This document shows positions 46,093-56,173 of a stretch of DNA of 64,000 nt, piece after piece (positions within the stretch are counted from its first letter, which is position 1; every line of letters begins with the position of its first letter). Location of the stretch: IMG/VR virus record IMGVR_UViG_3300028920_000027, positions 1-64,000 of that record. One strand, 5' to 3'. A program made the position numbers and the translations under genes. The notes beneath the pieces are model-generated. The model had not been told where the DNA came from. It did no database searches and worked only from the letters and a program-made list of their open reading frames with translations. This stretch comes from a virus.

Positions 46093-46541
46093 TTACCCGC
46101 CAAAACGCTGGCGATTGATGTGGGCAGAAGATGCCCACACACAGTTCGCGGGCCACCCCTCGCGGCGGCACTCCTCGCACTTGCCGCAGGAATAGTGCCC
46201 CCTCAAGCCACGCCGGGTGAACTTGAACTTCGGGTCAGGCTTATGAAGTCGCCTACCCACTCGGGGTGGATCTTGACACCGTGCCCGCCCCAGTCAGGAT
46301 AGTTGCTGCTCTTGAGGTTGAGGCAGCGGTCTTTCATAGCAAGCCAAACGTTGTGCTCGGGTGTGTGGCTCATACCGTGCTTGAAGTTGGTACGGTGCCC
46401 CCTGCGTACGGGGCGCAGATCGACACCCTGACCCCACTTGCTCTGGGCCCGTTGGTTGTTGTTCTGCTCGAGTACCGTTGCCCAGCGCACGTTTCCGGGC
46501 TCGTAGTTGCCGTTGACGTCCTTGCGGTCAAAAACACTCAT
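46093..46541 (-). pseudogene. Decayed tandem HNH homing endonuclease
   Basis: Begins mid-domain (FDRKDVNGNYEPGNVRWAT), then HGMSHTPEHNVWLAMKDRC..EW. After a frameshift near 46240 it continues PDPKFKFTRRGLRGHYSCGKCEECRREGWPANCVWA to TAA 46093-46095. Confidence 0.85.
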
Positions 46542-47280
46542 CTCCCCCACGCCCGCTCCATTGGGGCAATTTCACCTCGCGAAGAATGTTAAAGCGCTTC
46601 ATCCGTATAGTACTGAAAATCTGTTCATACGGCTTGAGGGTCTCGTCGTCGGAGGCCATTTCGGTCAGCCTGTCCACAGCCTTGAAGAACCTGTGCCTAA
46701 CTCGGCCCTGGGTAAGGCACAAGCGCTTGGCGACCTCGCTCTGGCAAGTCGTCGCCCACATCCCGACAAGGATTTCAACGTCCACCTGTATGGTCCCAAC
46801 ACCCCGACAAATGGGACAGTCCTCACCCTTGCAGCCCTGGGGGCAGTGGACCTGGCTGGGGAACACCCTAGCCAGGTCCCGTCGCATCTCTTCCTCAGCC
46901 ACCTGAGGGATGCTCAAGAGGAACTTGATGCGCTTGATCCCACGGTCGAGCCGATAACTAATGGCCGCCTGTGTCACCCCGAAAATGGTGGCAATATCAG
47001 CCTGGCGCTTCCCGTGGACGAAATAGAGGTAGATAAGGTCGGCTTCTCGTTCAGGAATGCGTTCGAGCAACGGGGCGACCCGGGCCTCGTAGTCTTCGGT
47101 CGCCGAAAATAACTCTGCGATGTCTTCAGGGTCGACAGGATTACCTTCGTCGTCAAAGACATACTCTGGGTCCTCGTCGTCATTGGCAGCCTCTTCATCC
47201 CATGGGTGAACTACATCTATCGGATTGCTGAATCGTTGGGCCAATTCATGGGGGTCCACTGGAATGATGTATGCTGCCAT
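46528..47280 (-). CDS. Sigma-70 region-4-like double-HTH regulator
   Basis: Start MAAYII at 47280. IPEREADLIYLYFVHGKRQADIATIFGVTQAAISYRL, second HTH QSEVAKRLCLTQGRV, and a CPQGC..CPICRG insert; no region 2 visible. Confidence 0.75.
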   Translation of the reverse strand: MAAYIIPVDPHELAQRFSNPIDVVHPWDEEAANDDEDPEYVFDDEGNPVDPEDIAELFSATEDYEARVAPLLERIPEREADLIYLYFVHGKRQADIATIFGVTQAAISYRLDRGIKRIKFLLSIPQVAEEEMRRDLARVFPSQVHCPQGCKGEDCPICRGVGTIQVDVEILVGMWATTCQSEVAKRLCLTQGRVRHRFFKAVDRLTEMASDDETLKPYEQIFSTIRMKRFNILREVKLPQWSGRGGDECF

Positions 47281-49117
47281 TCTCGATCCTCGGCCCCAAC
47301 AGGGCATCCAGAATGGGGTCGGGGTTGACCCCAATCTCCCGCAGTCGGGAGGCAATACGATCTACATCTTCATCTGGGTTTGTGAGAAAGACAGTAACGT
47401 TTTGAAGGGTCATCAACTCGACGTTGAGAGTCACCTGCGGCTTAGCAGTTTGAAGCTGCTCGTACTGCCGCCCGGAGAGCCCGGCCAACCCCGACTTGAA
47501 AACCCCCTCCACGGTCCCGTGTGTCCGGACAAGATCCCTGAGGACTTTCTTTGGTACTCTGGCAACTCCTGGGATCTCATCGGACGTATCTCCGCAAAGA
47601 GCCCTAAGCTGTACCATTGAACTTGGAAGTACCCCAAACAGTTTCTCAACATCGGCCGGAGAGGTGAACTCCAACTCCTTCCGACCCCCAACTGCTGGCT
47701 GCAAAACATGGGTCGTCAGGGTCACCAACTGAAGCAGGTCGTTGTCGGTGGAGAAGACGACGTTGACCTGACCCTTCAGATGATCGCGCGTCAGGGTTGC
47801 AATAACATCATCGGCCTCGGCCTCCGGATTGATGCCCTGATAGACCCCCAGAGCCGGAAGGATCTCCATCAAATAGTCGATCTGGTTGAAGCCCCTGTCA
47901 GAACTGGAAAATTTTGACATCCTCGATTGACGCTTTGCCTTATACCCCGGAAAAGCGTCCTTCCGGCTCTGGGACGACCCCGGAGCGTCCCAGGCGACAT
48001 ACAGCCGCGCGTTGGGGTACCGCTTGCGTAGAGAACCTAACCCTCGCAAAAAACCGAAGATCACGCCCGTCGGGCGTCCCAACTCATCGGTCAAGTCCTT
48101 CAAATTGGGTGCGTGTAGGCACCTGTAGGCCAAGTTCATCCCATCCACGATGACGTTCTGAGTCACATCGCCTCCATCCAGTTGTGCAACCTGCTGAGCC
48201 AGCCGATCGCAAGCGTCCACAAGCCGTTGGAATCTTTCCAGGACCCCCTGCATCCACGCCAACTCCACGATGACGTTCTCGATACCTGCCACCTTCCGAC
48301 CCAAGAAGTCTGTCTGATAGAAGGTTACAAACGACCACAATCTGCGACCCTTAACTACCCACTCTCCCAGCTGCTCGAACTCCGCCATGCTACTGTTGCA
48401 GTGCACAACGAGGGCGTCAGATGCGTTCGCGACTAGCGACCAAAGACGGCAACCCCGAAACTGCCAGTCAGCGAACCGCGAGTAATCCCCCCACGCCTCC
48501 TTCAACGGCAACAGGGGCTGGTCCTCCCAGGTCAGGTAGGGTCGCGCGTGCATCAGCCATTCGCGCAACCGCGAGACGTGGTGTGCCATGGGAGACCCAG
48601 GAGCACGCTCGATGACCTTCAGGAAGGTTCGCGGCAACGTAAGCAGACTTTGCTTACTCCGTAATTGAACGTAAACCTGAACCTTTCCCTGCTCAGGAAT
48701 GTCGGCGACGACTTGTGCCGGAATCGACTGATAGGGGCCTTTGACGATCTCCACAGTGTCGCCAATACAAATCCCCTGGTCGGCCTCGATGCGTACCTGA
48801 CGCTTCAGACGCTCGACATCTGCATCGGTCACGGTCGACAAGCGACGATCTTTCCCATTACCCTCCGCCAAAAGGCTCTGCACGTAACGGGAACCTTCGA
48901 GCTTGAGGTAGGCCGCGTCCTCGTGGTCGCGGCGCACGAAAGCGTACCCGTCCATCAAGTAGCGAACGACCCGGTCCTCCCCAATCTGGGTGATGCTCGC
49001 AGGAATGAATACCTCCCCCTCCCCCCCAATAACTCGTAGGATGGACTTCGAGATCTCGTCAGGATCCTCAGACTCCCCGCGCAGGCTAAGCTCCAGAACT
49101 ACCCAATCAGTTGGCAT
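47246..49117 (-). CDS. NusG-like (NGN+KOW) domain fused to a 5'-3' exonuclease (PolA-N/FEN)
   Basis: Start MPTDWVV at 49117. EVFIP, GYAFV and IGDTVEIVKGPY (KOW); later VIVDGMNLAY, VAWDA, EAEADDVIA, STDNDLLQL and GDTSDEIPGV. Confidence 0.85.
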   Translation of the reverse strand: MPTDWVVLELSLRGESEDPDEISKSILRVIGGEGEVFIPASITQIGEDRVVRYLMDGYAFVRRDHEDAAYLKLEGSRYVQSLLAEGNGKDRRLSTVTDADVERLKRQVRIEADQGICIGDTVEIVKGPYQSIPAQVVADIPEQGKVQVYVQLRSKQSLLTLPRTFLKVIERAPGSPMAHHVSRLREWLMHARPYLTWEDQPLLPLKEAWGDYSRFADWQFRGCRLWSLVANASDALVVHCNSSMAEFEQLGEWVVKGRRLWSFVTFYQTDFLGRKVAGIENVIVELAWMQGVLERFQRLVDACDRLAQQVAQLDGGDVTQNVIVDGMNLAYRCLHAPNLKDLTDELGRPTGVIFGFLRGLGSLRKRYPNARLYVAWDAPGSSQSRKDAFPGYKAKRQSRMSKFSSSDRGFNQIDYLMEILPALGVYQGINPEAEADDVIATLTRDHLKGQVNVVFSTDNDLLQLVTLTTHVLQPAVGGRKELEFTSPADVEKLFGVLPSSMVQLRALCGDTSDEIPGVARVPKKVLRDLVRTHGTVEGVFKSGLAGLSGRQYEQLQTAKPQVTLNVELMTLQNVTVFLTNPDEDVDRIASRLREIGVNPDPILDALLGPRIENGSIHHSSGPP

Positions 49118-51881
49118 CGCTCCTCGGGCTGGAAGTACGGACCAAGTACGCCTGGTGAGCGCGCCGCCACTCGGTGGGAGGGAGGAGTCGAAGCCCGCCG
49201 GGGACGCTCTGACGAGGAATCTCAACCTGGGGTGGCGGTTTCCGCTCATGACCCCGAGGTCGTTGGTGAGGCACTCCTTGCTCATCCAACGTCGTCAACG
49301 CCGCAAAGTCATTGCTCCCAAGTGAACCGATCCCATCTGGGCGACCGTGGGCCGGCATGGCAAGCGGCGGTGGAGGCTTGGGGGACTCCTGCTCTGGAGC
49401 CTCGCTCTCCACCTCCGCAGACGCCACAGGAGCAGAAATGGGGGCTGTGGCCTCCACTGGGGAAGGAGGTAATGCCAGAGGGGCTACAACTTGAAGGACC
49501 ATGGGCTGTGAGGGCACGACCGCTGTTTGAGGTATGCCACCACCCCCGGAAAGTGCAACGACGTCACACACCAACCCTGCCTTGGTCACGTGACGCACAC
49601 GCAAAAAGTACTCAGCCAGCTTCGTTACATTGTCCTTGAAAAGACTATACACCTGTTTGGCGAGACCCCGATCCATCAAACTGAAAGGCGCATGCATCTT
49701 GTAGGCGAGCCGATAGCTATTCATGGCCGCCTCGGCGAGGCCCGCGGCAACGTCGTCAGGGTCCAGAGTACCGCATAAATCGTCTACGATCCTGGCAGCC
49801 TCCCCAGGTTGACCCAGAGACAGGAGCACCTTGTAGTACTGAGTGACAGCATCGAGCCTGAGGTATGTTCGAGCCGACTCCAAGGATACAGGTCCAAGCT
49901 GGGCGATCATTTCGAGCTTGTTCAAGATGTCTCGAACATGGCCCTGCGAATGATCGATGACCACCAACAGGGCGTCATCCTCGTACTCAACCTTTTCAGC
50001 CTCCAAGATCTTCCTGAGCCTGACCTGGACATCATCGCGCGTGATGGGGCGCATAATGTGCTCCTCGCACCGTGACCGGATCGTGGAGCGGATCTTGTTG
50101 CCTTCGGTGGTGCAGAGGATGGCAACGAACCTCTTGTCTTCAATGGGCTTGAGCAGTACGTCCTGCGAGTCGCGGCTCATGCGGTGCATTTCGTCAAAAA
50201 CAATGACGCGCTTGGCGGCCCCCGGGACGTTAAACGCCAACTCATCGACGATGCGTCGAACGTTATCGATGGTGCCCGAGCTAGCGGCGTCCAACTCCTT
50301 GTAGGCCACCGAGGCTTCAGTCAACTGGGCTTGGCAGTTGTCGCAGCTGTTACAGGGCTCGCTCCCCCCTTGAAGGTCTTGGCAGAGCAGTGCCCGGGCC
50401 AGGATGCGAGCCAGGGTCGTGTTGTGGTTCATGAACCCCCCAGCTGCAAACATCTCTTGTCCAGGGACCGAAAGGTCAAACACTTCTGCCCGGCCCGGAG
50501 ATGTTTCGATTACCGGATCGAAGTAGTACCCTGTATCCAGCAAGTGCTTGAAGTGGGCATACCCAGGGCACCCTTTGAACTCGCTGACAATGCGCTGGAC
50601 CTGGCGATCCGTACACGACACACGCCCCCTCCGTGCCTGGAAGAAGTGGCTGGTGTCATGAGTCCGCAACTCAGAAGAAAGGCTCTCATAGAAGAAACGT
50701 AGGTGGGCCGCTTGGTAGGGCACCACTTCGTAAGTATTGGATAGTTGACGGCGACCCTTAGCGTGTCCACGAACGAGAGACCGTTGTAGCTGGCCCCGCT
50801 TTCGAGCCGAAAGAAAACCTACCTTGGACGCGAACACGTCGAGGGATGAGCGCCGAATACCGACCCTCCAGTAGACCCCGTACTCCGGATGGGGCTTGGG
50901 GCGCCGATAGGCCACCACCCCTAAATTCAACAACATCGCCTGCACCTGACGAGCGAGCTTAGGGCTCTTGGTGAGGGCCTCTACTCGGTACCCCGAGACG
51001 CTACCGTCACACTCAAAGTAACCTCGCAGAAACTCGCAAACGAGATGCTCAGGGGAGACCCTGATGGACCATGGCATTTCCTTCCCGCCAGCCTTCGCAT
51101 AGGAAACCCCGAGGAATGCCAGAAAATCCCTGAACTGAACACTGCTGCATCGAACCGCAACGAGACCTGGGCGCCGTTTGTCTGGTGAAATGAAACTCCC
51201 CCCGCCCAGGCGGTCTAAAAGACGCCTGGCATCATCCACGGTATCAGGCTCAGCTGTATGGACCGAGACACTTGTCCTACTCGTGCATGAACCGTCCCCT
51301 GCCAGATAGCCCAGCAACCGTGCCCACTCCAAGCTCAGGGTAGTCGGGGGGTTGAAGTCATGGCTGCTATGGTCATGGGGTCGTTTCGCGTAGGAGTAAC
51401 CCTCAATCAAAGGCCCTGTGCCAAAAAGTCCTGTCCCTCGCGAAAGGCACGCATAATCACCTTTGCGCACTTGACCTATCTCCCTCCACTCAATCTCACC
51501 CGATTTAGCCAGGATCTTGATGCGATGGTGGGGGGTCCCTTCGATGAAGAAGCCCAAACTAGTCTTGATGCGAACTGTGTCCCGGACCCCACCTCGATAC
51601 GAGAAAGCTGCCTCACCCACCCCCTGTTCTTGCCCAACGACAATATGCACAGGGTCGACGACATGGGGCCCACCCATAAGGTCTCCTATTTCGAGCAAAC
51701 CACGGTTCGTAGGGACCAAGGTCTCCTTAGACACACACTTCCCACGCCCGTGCCCGCCCGAGAAGATGTAGCTCGTGTCCAGGGCAGTCCCATTCTTCAA
51801 GCGCTGCTTGAGCACCTGGACAGGGCCCTCCTGCCCTAGCACGTCACCAAAAACGCGAGGTCGATACTTGATATCCCACAC
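49107..51881 (-). CDS. dnaX: DNA polymerase III gamma/tau-type clamp loader with intein
   Basis: KYRP..F.DV.GQ, SGGHGRGK|TT, EPCNSCDNC Zn module, ELDAAS, DEMHRM, IRSRC (SRC motif); Pro-rich tail. Confidence 0.95.
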   Translation of the reverse strand: MWDIKYRPRVFGDVLGQEGPVQVLKQRLKNGTALDTSYIFSGGHGRGKCVSKETLVPTNRGLLEIGDLMGGPHVVDPVHIVVGQEQGVGEAAFSYRGGVRDTVRIKTSLGFFIEGTPHHRIKILAKSGEIEWREIGQVRKGDYACLSRGTGLFGTGPLIEGYSYAKRPHDHSSHDFNPPTTLSLEWARLLGYLAGDGSCTSRTSVSVHTAEPDTVDDARRLLDRLGGGSFISPDKRRPGLVAVRCSSVQFRDFLAFLGVSYAKAGGKEMPWSIRVSPEHLVCEFLRGYFECDGSVSGYRVEALTKSPKLARQVQAMLLNLGVVAYRRPKPHPEYGVYWRVGIRRSSLDVFASKVGFLSARKRGQLQRSLVRGHAKGRRQLSNTYEVVPYQAAHLRFFYESLSSELRTHDTSHFFQARRGRVSCTDRQVQRIVSEFKGCPGYAHFKHLLDTGYYFDPVIETSPGRAEVFDLSVPGQEMFAAGGFMNHNTTLARILARALLCQDLQGGSEPCNSCDNCQAQLTEASVAYKELDAASSGTIDNVRRIVDELAFNVPGAAKRVIVFDEMHRMSRDSQDVLLKPIEDKRFVAILCTTEGNKIRSTIRSRCEEHIMRPITRDDVQVRLRKILEAEKVEYEDDALLVVIDHSQGHVRDILNKLEMIAQLGPVSLESARTYLRLDAVTQYYKVLLSLGQPGEAARIVDDLCGTLDPDDVAAGLAEAAMNSYRLAYKMHAPFSLMDRGLAKQVYSLFKDNVTKLAEYFLRVRHVTKAGLVCDVVALSGGGGIPQTAVVPSQPMVLQVVAPLALPPSPVEATAPISAPVASAEVESEAPEQESPKPPPPLAMPAHGRPDGIGSLGSNDFAALTTLDEQGVPHQRPRGHERKPPPQVEIPRQSVPGGLRLLPPTEWRRAHQAYLVRTSSPRSDAN
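50421..51737 (-). mobile_element. Intein with LAGLIDADG endonuclease in DnaX (439 aa)
   Basis: Starts CVSKET (aa 49), TPHHR, LLGYLAGDG, FLRGYFECDG, ends NHN before Thr. Confidence 0.95.
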
Positions 51882-54290: not shown

Positions 54291-54965
54291 TCAGGCACCC
54301 CTCAGGGTCAGGTGCCGACGGCCACCCTCGACGACCTCGACACAGCGGTAAGCTCGGTTGGCGTGCGTGACGTAACCTTGCTTGTGAGTGACCAGCAGCA
54401 CGTCGATGCCGGTCTCCTTGGCGAGCTGGCGAAGAAAGTGCCCAGTACGCTCAACGTACTCTTCACTGACGGCGCCCAAGCTTTCGTCAAGAACCAGTAT
54501 GGGGATTCGCTTGAGCTTGACCATCGTCATCAAGCGAATGATAAGCGAAGCCACACTACAAGGCCCGCCCCCGAACGAATCCAGGGGCTTGCCTCGAATG
54601 CTCAAGGGGTTCTCGGGCTTACCCTCCCTGATGTAGAACTCGATCCAGACCTTGCCATGCTTAGGCACCAGCTCGGCCTCGAAGCTCAGGTCAAGATCAT
54701 GGAAAATAGCTTCCAAACCTTCTCCCACGATCTTGCGCAGTGCCTCAACCTGATCGTTGATGAGCAAGTCCATGAGCTTGCGGAGGCCCTGCCCCGTTTG
54801 ATCGAGCATCAAGCTTTGGTGGTCGAGGTGATCAATCTGCTTCCGGATCTGGGATCCTTGTGTACGAAGGCGGTCCCGTAACGTCACCAGACGCTCGGCC
54901 TTCAACTCCAACTGACGGAGTCGAGCGATCAATCCCGAGAGGGCATGAAGCGTGTCACTTGACAC
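54291..54965 (-). CDS. Rad50/SbcC ATPase, C-terminal half
   Basis: Coiled coil followed by signature-like SFGGG, Walker B ILVLDES and H-loop LLVTH; no Walker A. Confidence 0.88.
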   Translation of the reverse strand: MSSDTLHALSGLIARLRQLELKAERLVTLRDRLRTQGSQIRKQIDHLDHQSLMLDQTGQGLRKLMDLLINDQVEALRKIVGEGLEAIFHDLDLSFEAELVPKHGKVWIEFYIREGKPENPLSIRGKPLDSFGGGPCSVASLIIRLMTMVKLKRIPILVLDESLGAVSEEYVERTGHFLRQLAKETGIDVLLVTHKQGYVTHANRAYRCVEVVEGGRRHLTLRGA

Positions 54966-56173
54966 AAGTGCGCCTTATTCTCATCGTCCTGTCCTATAAG
55001 GACCTGACCGTTGTCATCGAGCCAGAATTCGTCGATGGTGCGGAAGGTCGCAACCTTCTTCTTACCCTTGGGCGCCAAGATTGCAACTCGAAGCTCGATC
55101 TCATGAGCCTTGACGGGGTTCACCAGGTCGAGAAGGTGGTTGACGTTGGCATTGATGGCAAAGCCATCCTCCCCTTCGACAGGGTCAACCCCCACGGGCA
55201 CGACCCCCACGGGCACGCTGTTAGCCACATTGGTACCCCCATCGCTCGCCACAAAACGGAGACTGGATTCGGAACTCGTATAGATCACCCGAATCTTGTC
55301 GAGCTTGGGGTCCAACTCGGCACGAGCATACTTCAACGCCTTTACCAGGAAGGTGCGGGGGGCCCGCAAGATGTACTTGTCGGCCTTGAGTGGGTAATAG
55401 CTGAATTTCCCATGCTCCCTCTCATGCTTGGCGCACCCCAATATAGCCCCTTCAGAGTTGACGAAGTAGACCATATTCGGAGCCGTCAAAACCTTGACCA
55501 TTCCCGACGAGTGGGACAAAAACGACAGGATCTGGGGCAGATGTTGCACCCCGAGTCCAAGACCCTTGTCTTTGAACGCCTCGCAATAAAAGTAGAACGC
55601 GCAGACGCCCGTGGCAGCGAATAGGAAGCCATTACCCTTAGCCCACTCCTCCTTCGAGGAATCAAAGATCTGGAACGTCTGAAAGTGCTCGTTCTCGTCA
55701 CGAGCGGCACTGCTCTTGGCCAGGTATGGTTTAGCCAAGGTAAGAGCCTCCCTAAGGACGGCGATAGGGTACTCCCGCTCACCCTCAGCGTCGGACAAGT
55801 CACAGGGACTCATAAAGCGGGCCTCAAATGATGTCTTCTTGCTGGAGGCTCCGCCCTCGGTCTCGTAGGAGACCGAGCATTCCTCGGGATTCGACGAGAA
55901 CTCAATCCACCCGTCAAGGCACTGGAGCGCGCCAACCTGATTGGCAGGGTAGATGAAGCTCCCCTCCCCTCGCACGTCCTCGACTTCAAGGGCCGCTCGT
56001 GACGTGTGGAATTGATCACGAGAATGCACCTCACACTTACCGTCCTTGATGACAAACAAGTACCCCGCCCCTCCCTGGGGAGTCACCGAGGAGGGGGTTA
56101 CAATCCCAACCAACCTCAACACGGCATGGAGGTGTGTCGCCTGTGTGCGAAACGTGATGTTGCTCATACTCAT
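54929..56173 (-). CDS. DNA sliding clamp (beta-subunit-like)
   Basis: 414 aa with three-domain clamp periodicity (HLHAVLRLV, AVLREALTLA, FLVKALKYA; AINANVNHLLD); two genes cluster with dnaX. Confidence 0.7.
   Translation of the reverse strand: MSMSNITFRTQATHLHAVLRLVGIVTPSSVTPQGGAGYLFVIKDGKCEVHSRDQFHTSRAALEVEDVRGEGSFIYPANQVGALQCLDGWIEFSSNPEECSVSYETEGGASSKKTSFEARFMSPCDLSDAEGEREYPIAVLREALTLAKPYLAKSSAARDENEHFQTFQIFDSSKEEWAKGNGFLFAATGVCAFYFYCEAFKDKGLGLGVQHLPQILSFLSHSSGMVKVLTAPNMVYFVNSEGAILGCAKHEREHGKFSYYPLKADKYILRAPRTFLVKALKYARAELDPKLDKIRVIYTSSESSLRFVASDGGTNVANSVPVGVVPVGVDPVEGEDGFAINANVNHLLDLVNPVKAHEIELRVAILAPKGKKKVATFRTIDEFWLDDNGQVLIGQDDENKAHLCQVTRFMPSRD

What the first reader, a model, noticed from the sequence alone, without database searches (positions are those of the whole stretch)
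47246..49117. NusG-like antiterminator fused in frame to a 5'-3' exonuclease, with a nested start
Seen: NGN+KOW domain, a ~150-aa helical linker, then a complete PolA-N/FEN domain with no stop between. GGAGG (48171-48175) precedes an in-frame GTG (48166) exactly at the exonuclease start (VTQNVIVDG). Known: NusG paralogs (RfaH, LoaP, TaA) enable very long operons, and FEN/RNase H removes primers and R-loop RNA. Inference: either a true fusion coupling transcription elongation to RNA/DNA 5' processing, or two genes merged by stop loss and producing long and short forms.
Basis: partly seen in the sequence, partly recalled or inferred. Interest (0 to 1): 0.7.

Follow-up and report, generated by a model that had tools for sequence, protein, structure and literature searches.

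The report
Megaphage NusG–flap nuclease fusion gene
A huge uncultured phage joins a copy of the RNA-polymerase-riding factor NusG to its only DNA flap nuclease in one gene, and indirect sequence evidence suggests that the gene also makes the nuclease alone from an internal start.

Summary
On the minus strand, 49117-47246 is one 623-codon frame. It encodes a divergent NusG-like NGN+KOW module (residues 1-170), a four-helix spacer (176-313) and a complete 5'-3' exonuclease/FEN domain (318-623). GGAGG lies 4 nt before the in-frame GTG at 48166.

It is a true fusion, not a stop loss or assembly error. About 490 homologues of 600-690 aa keep it, and a second assembly is identical. Distant relatives have the two parts as adjacent genes. 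At least five lineages have re-split the gene at exactly this boundary.

The GGAGG itself is not evidence, because Gly-Gly codons explain it. Three other results favour a nested start:
- 59 of 63 sequence clusters keep a start-capable codon at the boundary.
- Split relatives start their FEN gene there.
- Synonymous codons keep the mRNA unusually unfolded only there, and this replicated in an independent set.

The probable products are a long RNA-polymerase-tethered nuclease and a free nuclease. No binding, activity or protein product has been shown. This scan has reported the same fusion in at least eight other genomes, and I found no paper on it.

The parts
47246..49117 (-). Whole NusG-like/helical/FEN gene, 623 codons plus stop. 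It overlaps the dnaX-like gene by 11 nt at its 5' end and the sigma-region-4-like gene by 35 nt at its 3' end.
49120..49125 (-). GAGGAG Shine-Dalgarno-like motif upstream of the annotated ATG at 49117
   Evidence: read
48608..49117 (-). Divergent NusG-family module, residues 1-170. NGN is about 1-113 and the five-stranded KOW is about 114-170.
   Evidence: Foldseek hit to NusG chain 9a56_B, E 8e-9
48179..48592 (-). Four long helices, residues 176-313. This is the spacer domain, found only in the fused or boundary-split clade. No known family matches it.
48171..48175 (-). GGAGG, 4 nt upstream of the in-frame GTG. It is encoded by the Gly-Gly codons GGA GGC.
48164..48166 (-). In-frame GTG (V318), the candidate internal start. 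It sits at the position where most relatives have ATG and where split relatives start their FEN gene.
47249..48166 (-). 5'-3' exonuclease / flap endonuclease domain, residues 318-623. The Pfam N part maps to 47636-48154 and the H3TH part to 47399-47629. The carboxylates D325, D377, E434, D436, D437, D458, D460, D510 and D513 are invariant in 116 sequences.
47294..47323 (-). Conserved near-C-terminal motif P-[DE]-[PS]-[IL]-[LV]-x-[AT]-F-F-G (PDPILDALLG in the window). It is a candidate clamp-binding peptide.
   Evidence: weak support
49107..51881 (-). Upstream neighbour: a DnaX-type clamp-loader ATPase interrupted by a LAGLIDADG intein. It sits directly upstream of the NusG-like gene in every relative whose neighbours were read.
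46528..47280 (-). Downstream neighbour: a sigma-70 region-4-like protein. It follows the NusG-like or FEN gene in every relative whose neighbours were read.
54929..56173 (-). Phage beta-type sliding clamp, 414 aa, with no Pfam hit. It is the likely partner of the FEN domain.

Best explanation
This is a conserved bifunctional gene of a clade of huge phages.

Shown:
- One open frame encodes a NusG-family NGN+KOW module, a four-helix spacer and a FEN nuclease with all catalytic carboxylates intact.
- The architecture is conserved across deep divergence.
- In four complete or near-complete relatives it is the only FEN and the only NusG-like gene. Their family-A DNA polymerase therefore lacks its usual 5' nuclease.
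- No phage RNA-polymerase beta subunit was found in those genomes.

Inferred:
- The NGN module docks on the host RNA polymerase, as all studied NusG proteins do.
- The full-length protein therefore places a flap/RNA-DNA 5' nuclease on elongating polymerase. There it would clear R-loops, or transcripts and primers, where transcription and the phage replisome meet on the long one-strand gene block.
- The gene most likely also yields a free 34-kDa FEN from the in-frame start at V318 (GTG 48166). This form would mature Okazaki fragments together with the phage beta clamp and DnaX loader.
For: Fusion:
- 487 homologues; the 120 best listed are 584-691 aa and cover 91-99% of the query.
- One frame spans the gene in 57 of 62 IMG/VR loci and 62 of 69 metagenome loci.
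- A second assembly is identical.

NusG homology.

Active-site residues are invariant in 116 sequences, and the top fold matches are FenA, Pol I and T5 FEN.

In relatives of 437-529 kb the fusion gene is the sole FEN and the sole NusG-like gene. A PolA gene lies elsewhere, and there is no RNAP beta, PolB or Pol III alpha.

The gene order DnaX, NusG(-FEN), sigma-R4 holds in all architectures.

Nested start:
- ATG occurs within 8 codons upstream of invariant N321 in 42 of 63 clusters (12% expected).
- Any start-capable codon occurs there in 59 of 63 clusters (42% expected).
- L069 is split there with an ATGA stop/start overlap and GGGAG 7 nt upstream. L066, L148 and L155 share a conserved overlapping-frame split.
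- Ten short proteins end at the boundary, and the tree needs at least 5-6 fused/split changes.
- mRNA from -30 to +20 around the boundary is less folded than synonymous resamples (mean z +0.74, p 1.5e-5). It is the only peak among 66 positions scanned.
- This replicated in 26 independent clusters: z +0.61, p 0.003, with controls between -0.80 and +0.07.
Against: - No RNAP binding, nuclease activity or protein product has been measured.
- The N-terminus scores far below every curated NusG, RfaH, LoaP and UpxY cut-off.
- The Shine-Dalgarno-like signal disappears once amino acids are held fixed.
- The excess of GTG among Val codons at the site is what single-step mutation from ATG would give.
- The folding signal is small per sequence. 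For the window alone z is +0.8, p 0.23.
- pTM 0.58 means the relative placement of the domains is not defined.
- A few relatives lack any start-capable codon at the boundary (L030, L039, L129, L138).
- For 7 of the 10 short proteins the downstream FEN gene could not be checked.
Confidence: 0.5

Rival explanations
1. Only the full-length protein is made. The conserved Met/Val/Leu is a structural hydrophobic residue at the entry to the first FEN strand, and the unfolded mRNA reflects some other constraint on a linker. Split relatives acquired working starts secondarily.
For: - M, V and L are chemically alike.
- Amino-acid composition explains the SD-like signal.
- The window's own folding z is not significant.
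- Four clusters lack a start-capable codon.
Against: - The flanking linker residues are not conserved, while this one is.
- Other inter-domain linkers (residues 100 and 172) show no unfolding signal.
- Five or more independent viable fissions at the same codon are hard to obtain without a pre-existing start.
Confidence: 0.3
2. The long form bridges RNA polymerase and the sliding clamp and serves replication-coupled late transcription. The FEN end binds nicks or flaps and the phage beta clamp, and the NusG end binds RNA polymerase. Together with the neighbouring sigma-region-4 protein, this would switch on or sustain the late structural operon, in the manner of T4 gp45-gp33-gp55.
For: - The three genes clamp loader, NusG-FEN and sigma-R4 are always adjacent and sit just upstream of the structural block.
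- The phage encodes its own beta clamp.
- A conserved near-C-terminal [IL][LV]xxFF motif is present.
- Complex prediction of clamp with FEN gave weak support: score 0.59, best of 3 controls 0.00. That mark was reached by 58 of 80 solved complexes and 2 of 110 mismatched pairs. At 0.60 or under, only 7 of those 80 solved complexes reached it, as did both mismatches that passed. The runs agreed in at least 0% of contacts, and partner pLDDT was at least 79. FEN-clamp complexes of other families are solved, so this pass may reflect likeness to them.
Against: - One of the three complex runs scored 0.00, and no interface was reported.
- The motif forms a confident helix in the monomer model and may belong to the FEN fold.
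- L079 and LR745208.1 keep the NusG-like and sigma-R4 genes without any FEN between them, so the transcription pair does not need the nuclease.
Confidence: 0.2
3. The NusG-like module no longer binds RNA polymerase. It serves the nuclease as a nucleic-acid-binding or protein-docking accessory, since KOW and NGN folds are reused in other contexts.
For: - Scores against all curated NusG models are very low.
- The family-specific invariant residues (for example LRSK at 152-155, W5, Y58, F60) are not NusG hallmarks that I could verify.
Against: - Homology spans both NGN and KOW in the NusG order.
- Stand-alone relatives of 165-207 aa sit next to a sigma-like gene with no nuclease present.
Confidence: 0.12
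4. The single frame is an assembly or sequencing artefact, or a recent stop loss, that merged two genes in this contig.
For: Relatives with two separate genes exist.
Against: - Hundreds of independent contigs carry the same uninterrupted frame.
- A second assembler gives the identical sequence at about 50-fold word depth, with no indel.
Confidence: 0.01

Closest known systems
Specialised NusG paralogues (RfaH, LoaP, UpxY, ActX/TaA) and housekeeping NusG/Spt5
   Same: It has NGN followed by KOW in the same order. It is encoded at the head of a very long one-strand gene block, which fits the 'long operon' role of the paralogues (general role as reviewed in PMC7819879).
   Different: It is phage-encoded and far below every curated cut-off. 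It carries a four-helix domain and a nuclease after the KOW. The review PMC7819879 mentions neither phage-encoded NusG homologues nor nuclease fusions.
Bacterial Pol I 5' nuclease domain, mycobacterial FenA, E. coli ExoIX (Xni), phage T5 D15 FEN
   Same: Same fold and same metal-binding carboxylates. Both Pfam domains score above their cut-offs.
   Different: In bacteria this domain is free or sits at the N-terminus of the family-A polymerase. Here the phage's PolA lacks it, and it is attached to a transcription-factor module.
In-frame nested genes of phage replication proteins (T7 gene 4A/4B, phiX174 A/A*), from my own knowledge
   Same: An internal in-frame start would give a C-terminal product alongside the full-length protein.
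   Different: Here the short product is only inferred from sequence statistics and from split relatives. No protein data exist.
T4 late-transcription coupling (gp45 clamp, gp44/62 loader, gp33, gp55), from my own knowledge
   Same: Clamp loader, clamp and RNA-polymerase-binding factors are encoded together, with a possible physical link between replication proteins and RNA polymerase.
   Different: The proteins are unrelated: a beta-type clamp, a NusG-like module and a sigma region-4 protein. A nuclease forms part of the link, and nothing has been tested.

Membership tests
NusG/Spt5 family | Sequence match to the NGN (Pfam PF02357) and KOW models above the curated cut-offs | tested here: not met
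   Pfam NusG: E 0.1, 13.6 bits against 22.2. TIGR00922: 27 bits against 135.7.
NusG/Spt5 family | Homology over NGN plus KOW, detectable with a family profile | tested here: met
   Profile A2 matches solved NusG chains from end to end, E 1.3e-12 to 2e-7. 23 of 40 members hit Pfam NusG and 13 hit KOW.
NusG/Spt5 family | Alpha/beta NGN fold followed by a five-stranded KOW barrel | tested here: met
   AlphaFold secondary structure over residues 1-170 with pLDDT above 90. Foldseek hit to NusG chain 9a56_B, E 8e-9 over 183 columns.
NusG/Spt5 family | Binding of NGN to the RNA polymerase clamp helices | not testable with these tools
RfaH / LoaP / UpxY subfamilies | Match to the subfamily model above its cut-off | tested here: not met
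   LoaP: 21-22 bits against 125. UpxY: 17-19 bits against 100. RfaH: 12-13 bits against 124-144.
5'-3' exonuclease / FEN (Pol I N-terminal type) | Both Pfam domains (PF02739, PF01367) above their gathering scores | tested here: met
   102.3 bits against 34.3, and 44.5 bits against 40.
5'-3' exonuclease / FEN (Pol I N-terminal type) | Conserved metal-binding carboxylates and the GDxSD H3TH motif | tested here: met
   D325, D377, E434, D436, D437, D458, D460, D510 and D513 are invariant in 116 sequences. They align to the Pol I/Taq motifs.
Nested gene with an internal in-frame start | Conserved start-capable codon at the domain boundary | tested here: met
   59 of 63 clusters have one, against 42% expected. 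ATG is present in 42 of 63, against 12% expected.
Nested gene with an internal in-frame start | Shine-Dalgarno sequence selected upstream of the start | tested here: inconclusive
   The signal is stronger than at other in-gene sites, but it is fully explained by the amino-acid sequence.
Nested gene with an internal in-frame start | Locally unfolded mRNA maintained at synonymous sites | tested here: met
   z +0.74 to +0.93 at the boundary only, p about 1e-5. Replicated with z +0.61, p 0.003.
Nested gene with an internal in-frame start | Detection of the short protein | not testable with these tools
   No proteomic or ribosome-profiling data are available, and no RNA run holds the stretch.
Clamp-binding replication nuclease | Binding to the sliding clamp through a terminal peptide | tested here: inconclusive
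   The motif is conserved. The complex prediction gave weak support only: 0.59 against a best control of 0.00, with one of three runs at 0.00.

The most novel reading that the evidence does not exclude
The long form is a physical bridge between the host RNA polymerase and the phage replisome (beta clamp and flap/primer ends), while the nested start supplies free nuclease. This would be a previously unknown device. It would either make late transcription depend on replication, an analogue of the T4 clamp-gp33-gp55 system built from unrelated parts, or process nascent transcripts or R-loops into or out of replication primers.
Probability: 0.2. Interest if true: 0.85.

Novelty: new variant of a known kind. 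Interest (0 to 1): 0.62.

Why it matters
NusG is the only transcription factor shared by all cellular life. Its known partners are ribosomes, Rho and RNA-processing factors, not DNA-replication nucleases. A conserved covalent link to the phage's only flap nuclease, beside the clamp loader and a sigma-like factor, points to an undescribed physical link between transcription and replication in the largest known phages.

The protein is small enough to express and test. The possible internal start would also explain how a single gene could serve both RNA polymerase and the replisome. It offers a natural case of repeated gene fusion and fission at one codon.

Tried and rejected
- Direct Pfam scans of the N-terminal half gave nothing significant.
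- The GGAGG/SD argument was rejected after the synonymous-codon control.
- The excess of GTG among Val codons at the site (8 of 10 clusters against a 30% background) was set aside as weak. ATG to GTG is the only one-step path from Met to Val.
- My heuristic picks of the annotated start gave noisy values (mean SD energy -4.8, mean folding z +0.22). They serve only as a rough yardstick.
- GenBank phages hold no full-length relative. They hold only FEN-only hits and one stand-alone NusG-like gene, in LR745208.1.
- Five literature searches and one review gave no description of a NusG-nuclease fusion.
- The Atlas search of the helical domain returned only generic helix bundles with TM about 0.5.
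- No RNA holder was listed among public runs. Run X2 covers only small parts of the stretch.
The gene downstream of 7 of the 10 boundary-ending short proteins therefore could not be inspected.
- L065's split lies in an A7 run and may be a sequencing indel.
- L104 has an in-frame TGA inside the helical domain, which I did not pursue.
- I considered a torpedo-type RNA 5'-3' exonuclease role. I judged it unlikely because this nuclease family acts on flaps and duplex ends. I did not test it.
Full report
**What is there.** The finding's coordinates are correct, but the gene is on the minus strand.
- The ATG at 49117 is preceded by GAGGAG at 49125-49120 and overlaps the stop of the upstream gene by 11 nt. 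It opens a 623-codon frame that ends at 47246.
- The longer frame back to 49285 runs through the end of the upstream gene. Homologues, which all begin M-x-x-[DE]-W-V-V-L-E-L, do not support it.
- Residues 322-573 match both Pfam 5'-3' exonuclease domains above their cut-offs.
- The nine carboxylates and the GDxSD motif expected of an active Pol I-type flap nuclease are invariant in 116 family members.
- The first 170 residues are very divergent. Pfam sees nothing (E 0.1), while TIGR00922 NusG and PHROG 6386 'transcription antiterminator' reach only E 2.5e-6.
- A profile of this segment with 39 stand-alone 165-190-aa relatives matches solved NusG proteins across NGN and KOW at E 1e-12 to 1e-7.
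- The AlphaFold model (pLDDT 90) has the NGN and five-stranded KOW layout and gives a Foldseek hit to a NusG chain.
- Residues 176-313 form four long helices with no recognisable family.

**Real fusion, and its history.**
- The database search returned 487 homologues. The 120 best are 584-691 aa long, 39-51% identical and cover 91-99% of the query.
- Of 131 IMG/VR and metagenome loci that held near-full-length matches, 119 carry one uninterrupted frame.
- A second assembly of a marine-sediment run, probably the source sample, is identical over the gene with no indel. An artefact or a private stop loss is therefore excluded.
- The contig is an IMG/VR virus record of 182 kb, estimated 38% complete. 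Relatives with terminal repeats are 437 and 512 kb, so these are huge phages.
- The neighbours are conserved: a DnaX-type clamp loader lies upstream (here with an intein) and a sigma region-4-like gene lies downstream.
- Around that frame the architecture varies:
  - NusG-like gene alone (L079 and the 485-kb GenBank record LR745208.1).
  - NusG-like and FEN as adjacent separate genes without the helical domain (L073-L078, about 30% identity).
  - The fusion with the helical domain (the majority).
  - Re-split forms in which NusG plus helices is one gene and FEN the next.
- The fusion therefore arose from neighbouring genes and gained a spacer domain.

**The nested start: signals that carry little weight.**
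- The Shine-Dalgarno-like pairing upstream of the boundary codon is stronger than at other in-gene start-capable codons. The excess disappears when each amino-acid sequence is kept and synonymous codons are redrawn from the gene's own usage (median p 0.49; window p 0.15). The motif is simply what Gly, Glu, Lys and Asp codons give.
- The preference for GTG among Val codons at the site is what single-step mutation from ATG predicts.

**The nested start: signals that survive.**
- Conserved start-capable codon.
  - An ATG lies within eight codons upstream of invariant N321 in 42 of 63 clusters (70% identity clusters; 12% expected).
  - Some start-capable codon lies there in 59 of 63 clusters (42% expected).
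  - The flanking linker residues are not conserved.
- Split relatives start the FEN gene there.
  - L069 has an ATGA stop/start overlap at the aligned Met, with GGGAG 7 nt upstream.
  - L066, L148 and L155 share a conserved overlapping-frame split with their FEN ATG nine codons further upstream, and they differ from each other at many bases.
  - Ten short proteins in the representative library end at the boundary.
  - A tree of the N-terminal 330 residues needs at least five to six changes between fused and split states.
  - Repeated viable fission at one codon is most easily explained if a working start was already there.
- Unfolded mRNA at synonymous sites.
  - The mRNA from -30 to +20 around the boundary codon is less folded than the rest of the gene.
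  - It is also less folded than synonymous resamples of the same peptide (mean z +0.74; 30 of 35 clusters positive; p 1.5e-5). Random positions give z -0.33.
  - In a scan of 66 positions the boundary is the single peak (z +0.93). Other domain linkers show nothing.
  - The result replicated in 26 clusters that are under 70% identical to any sequence of the first set (z +0.61, p 0.003; controls -0.80 to +0.07).
- Limits: this is indirect and small per sequence (window z +0.8). I put the nested start at about even odds or slightly better.

**What it probably does.**
- In four complete or nearly complete relatives the fusion gene holds the only FEN match and the only NusG-like match.
- Those relatives have a family-A polymerase encoded elsewhere. 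They show no match to RNA polymerase beta, PolB or Pol III alpha. The contig itself shows no match to RNA polymerase beta'.
- So the nuclease that bacteria attach to Pol I is attached here to a factor that, by family, rides the host RNA polymerase.
- The window also encodes a previously unrecognised beta-type sliding clamp (54929-56173; pLDDT 94.6; all top fold hits are DnaN, E about 1e-18).
- The FEN ends in a conserved [IL][LV]xxFF motif.
- A complex prediction of clamp with FEN domain gave weak support only.
  - The score was 0.59 and the best of three controls 0.00.
  - That mark was reached by 58 of 80 solved complexes and 2 of 110 mismatched pairs.
  - At 0.60 or under, only 7 of the 80 solved complexes reached it, as did both mismatches that passed.
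  - The runs agreed in at least 0% of contacts, and partner pLDDT was at least 79.
  - It may also reflect likeness to solved FEN-clamp complexes.
- My best reading is as follows. The long form tethers a flap/RNA-DNA nuclease to elongating RNA polymerase on a genome whose genes run one way for tens of kilobases. The short form works with the clamp in lagging-strand maturation.
- A clamp-to-polymerase bridge for replication-coupled late transcription is the most interesting alternative.
- None of the binding or catalytic steps is shown.

**Comparison and novelty.**
- The N-terminus is a NusG-family homologue by profile and fold, but it fails every curated subfamily cut-off. I therefore call it NusG-like and not a member of RfaH, LoaP or UpxY.
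- The C-terminus is a regular member of the Pol I-type FEN family.
- JGI's automatic names already read '5'-3' exonuclease/transcription antitermination factor NusG'.
- This scan has reported the same fusion in at least eight other genomes.
- I found no paper that describes it.

Noticed in passing
window 54929-56173 (-): A 414-aa ORF with no Pfam or PHROG hit is a beta-type (DnaN-like) sliding clamp by predicted fold (pLDDT 94.6, pTM 0.92; Foldseek E about 5e-19). At least 140 homologues in the protein collection have no family assigned, and where a source names them it calls them hypothetical.
   Followed up: yes
relatives G001-G004 (records of L002, L025, L030, L057): Complete 437-529-kb relatives encode a DnaX-type loader and a family-A DNA polymerase of 930-1422 aa. 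One of them, like this window, holds the beta-clamp gene. None has a match to Pol III alpha, PolB or RNA polymerase beta. A beta clamp and loader serving a PolA-type replicase would be an unusual combination.
   Followed up: partly
L066 7040-7150; L148 2556-2676; L155 2547-2667: In one subclade the NusG-helical gene and the FEN gene overlap by about 14 codons in different frames. The basic tail of the first protein (KERKRR..KR.R) is therefore the out-of-frame reading of the FEN N-terminus. The arrangement is conserved in three divergent sequences.
   Followed up: partly
L104 about 2150 (contig VFSW01046191.1) and protein P0135: There is an in-frame TGA inside the helical domain, where relatives read on (R-L-*-D-W-L-L). 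It could be a pseudogene, a sequencing error or a read-through site.
   Followed up: no
window 48164-48169 (-): The candidate GTG start overlaps an out-of-frame ATG-TGA start-stop pair (GAUGUGA). It is probably chance, and I did not check whether it is conserved.
   Followed up: no
window 46528-47280 (-), and L079 / LR745208.1 (L083 4079-4672): The sigma region-4-like gene directly follows the NusG-like gene, or the FEN gene where one is present, in every architecture. This includes phages that lack the FEN, so the NusG-like/sigma-R4 pair is the conserved core at the replication-to-structural junction.
   Followed up: partly
The DnaX homologue in LR745208.1 seems to carry an unrelated-looking shorter insert, judged by eye from its translation.
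   Followed up: no
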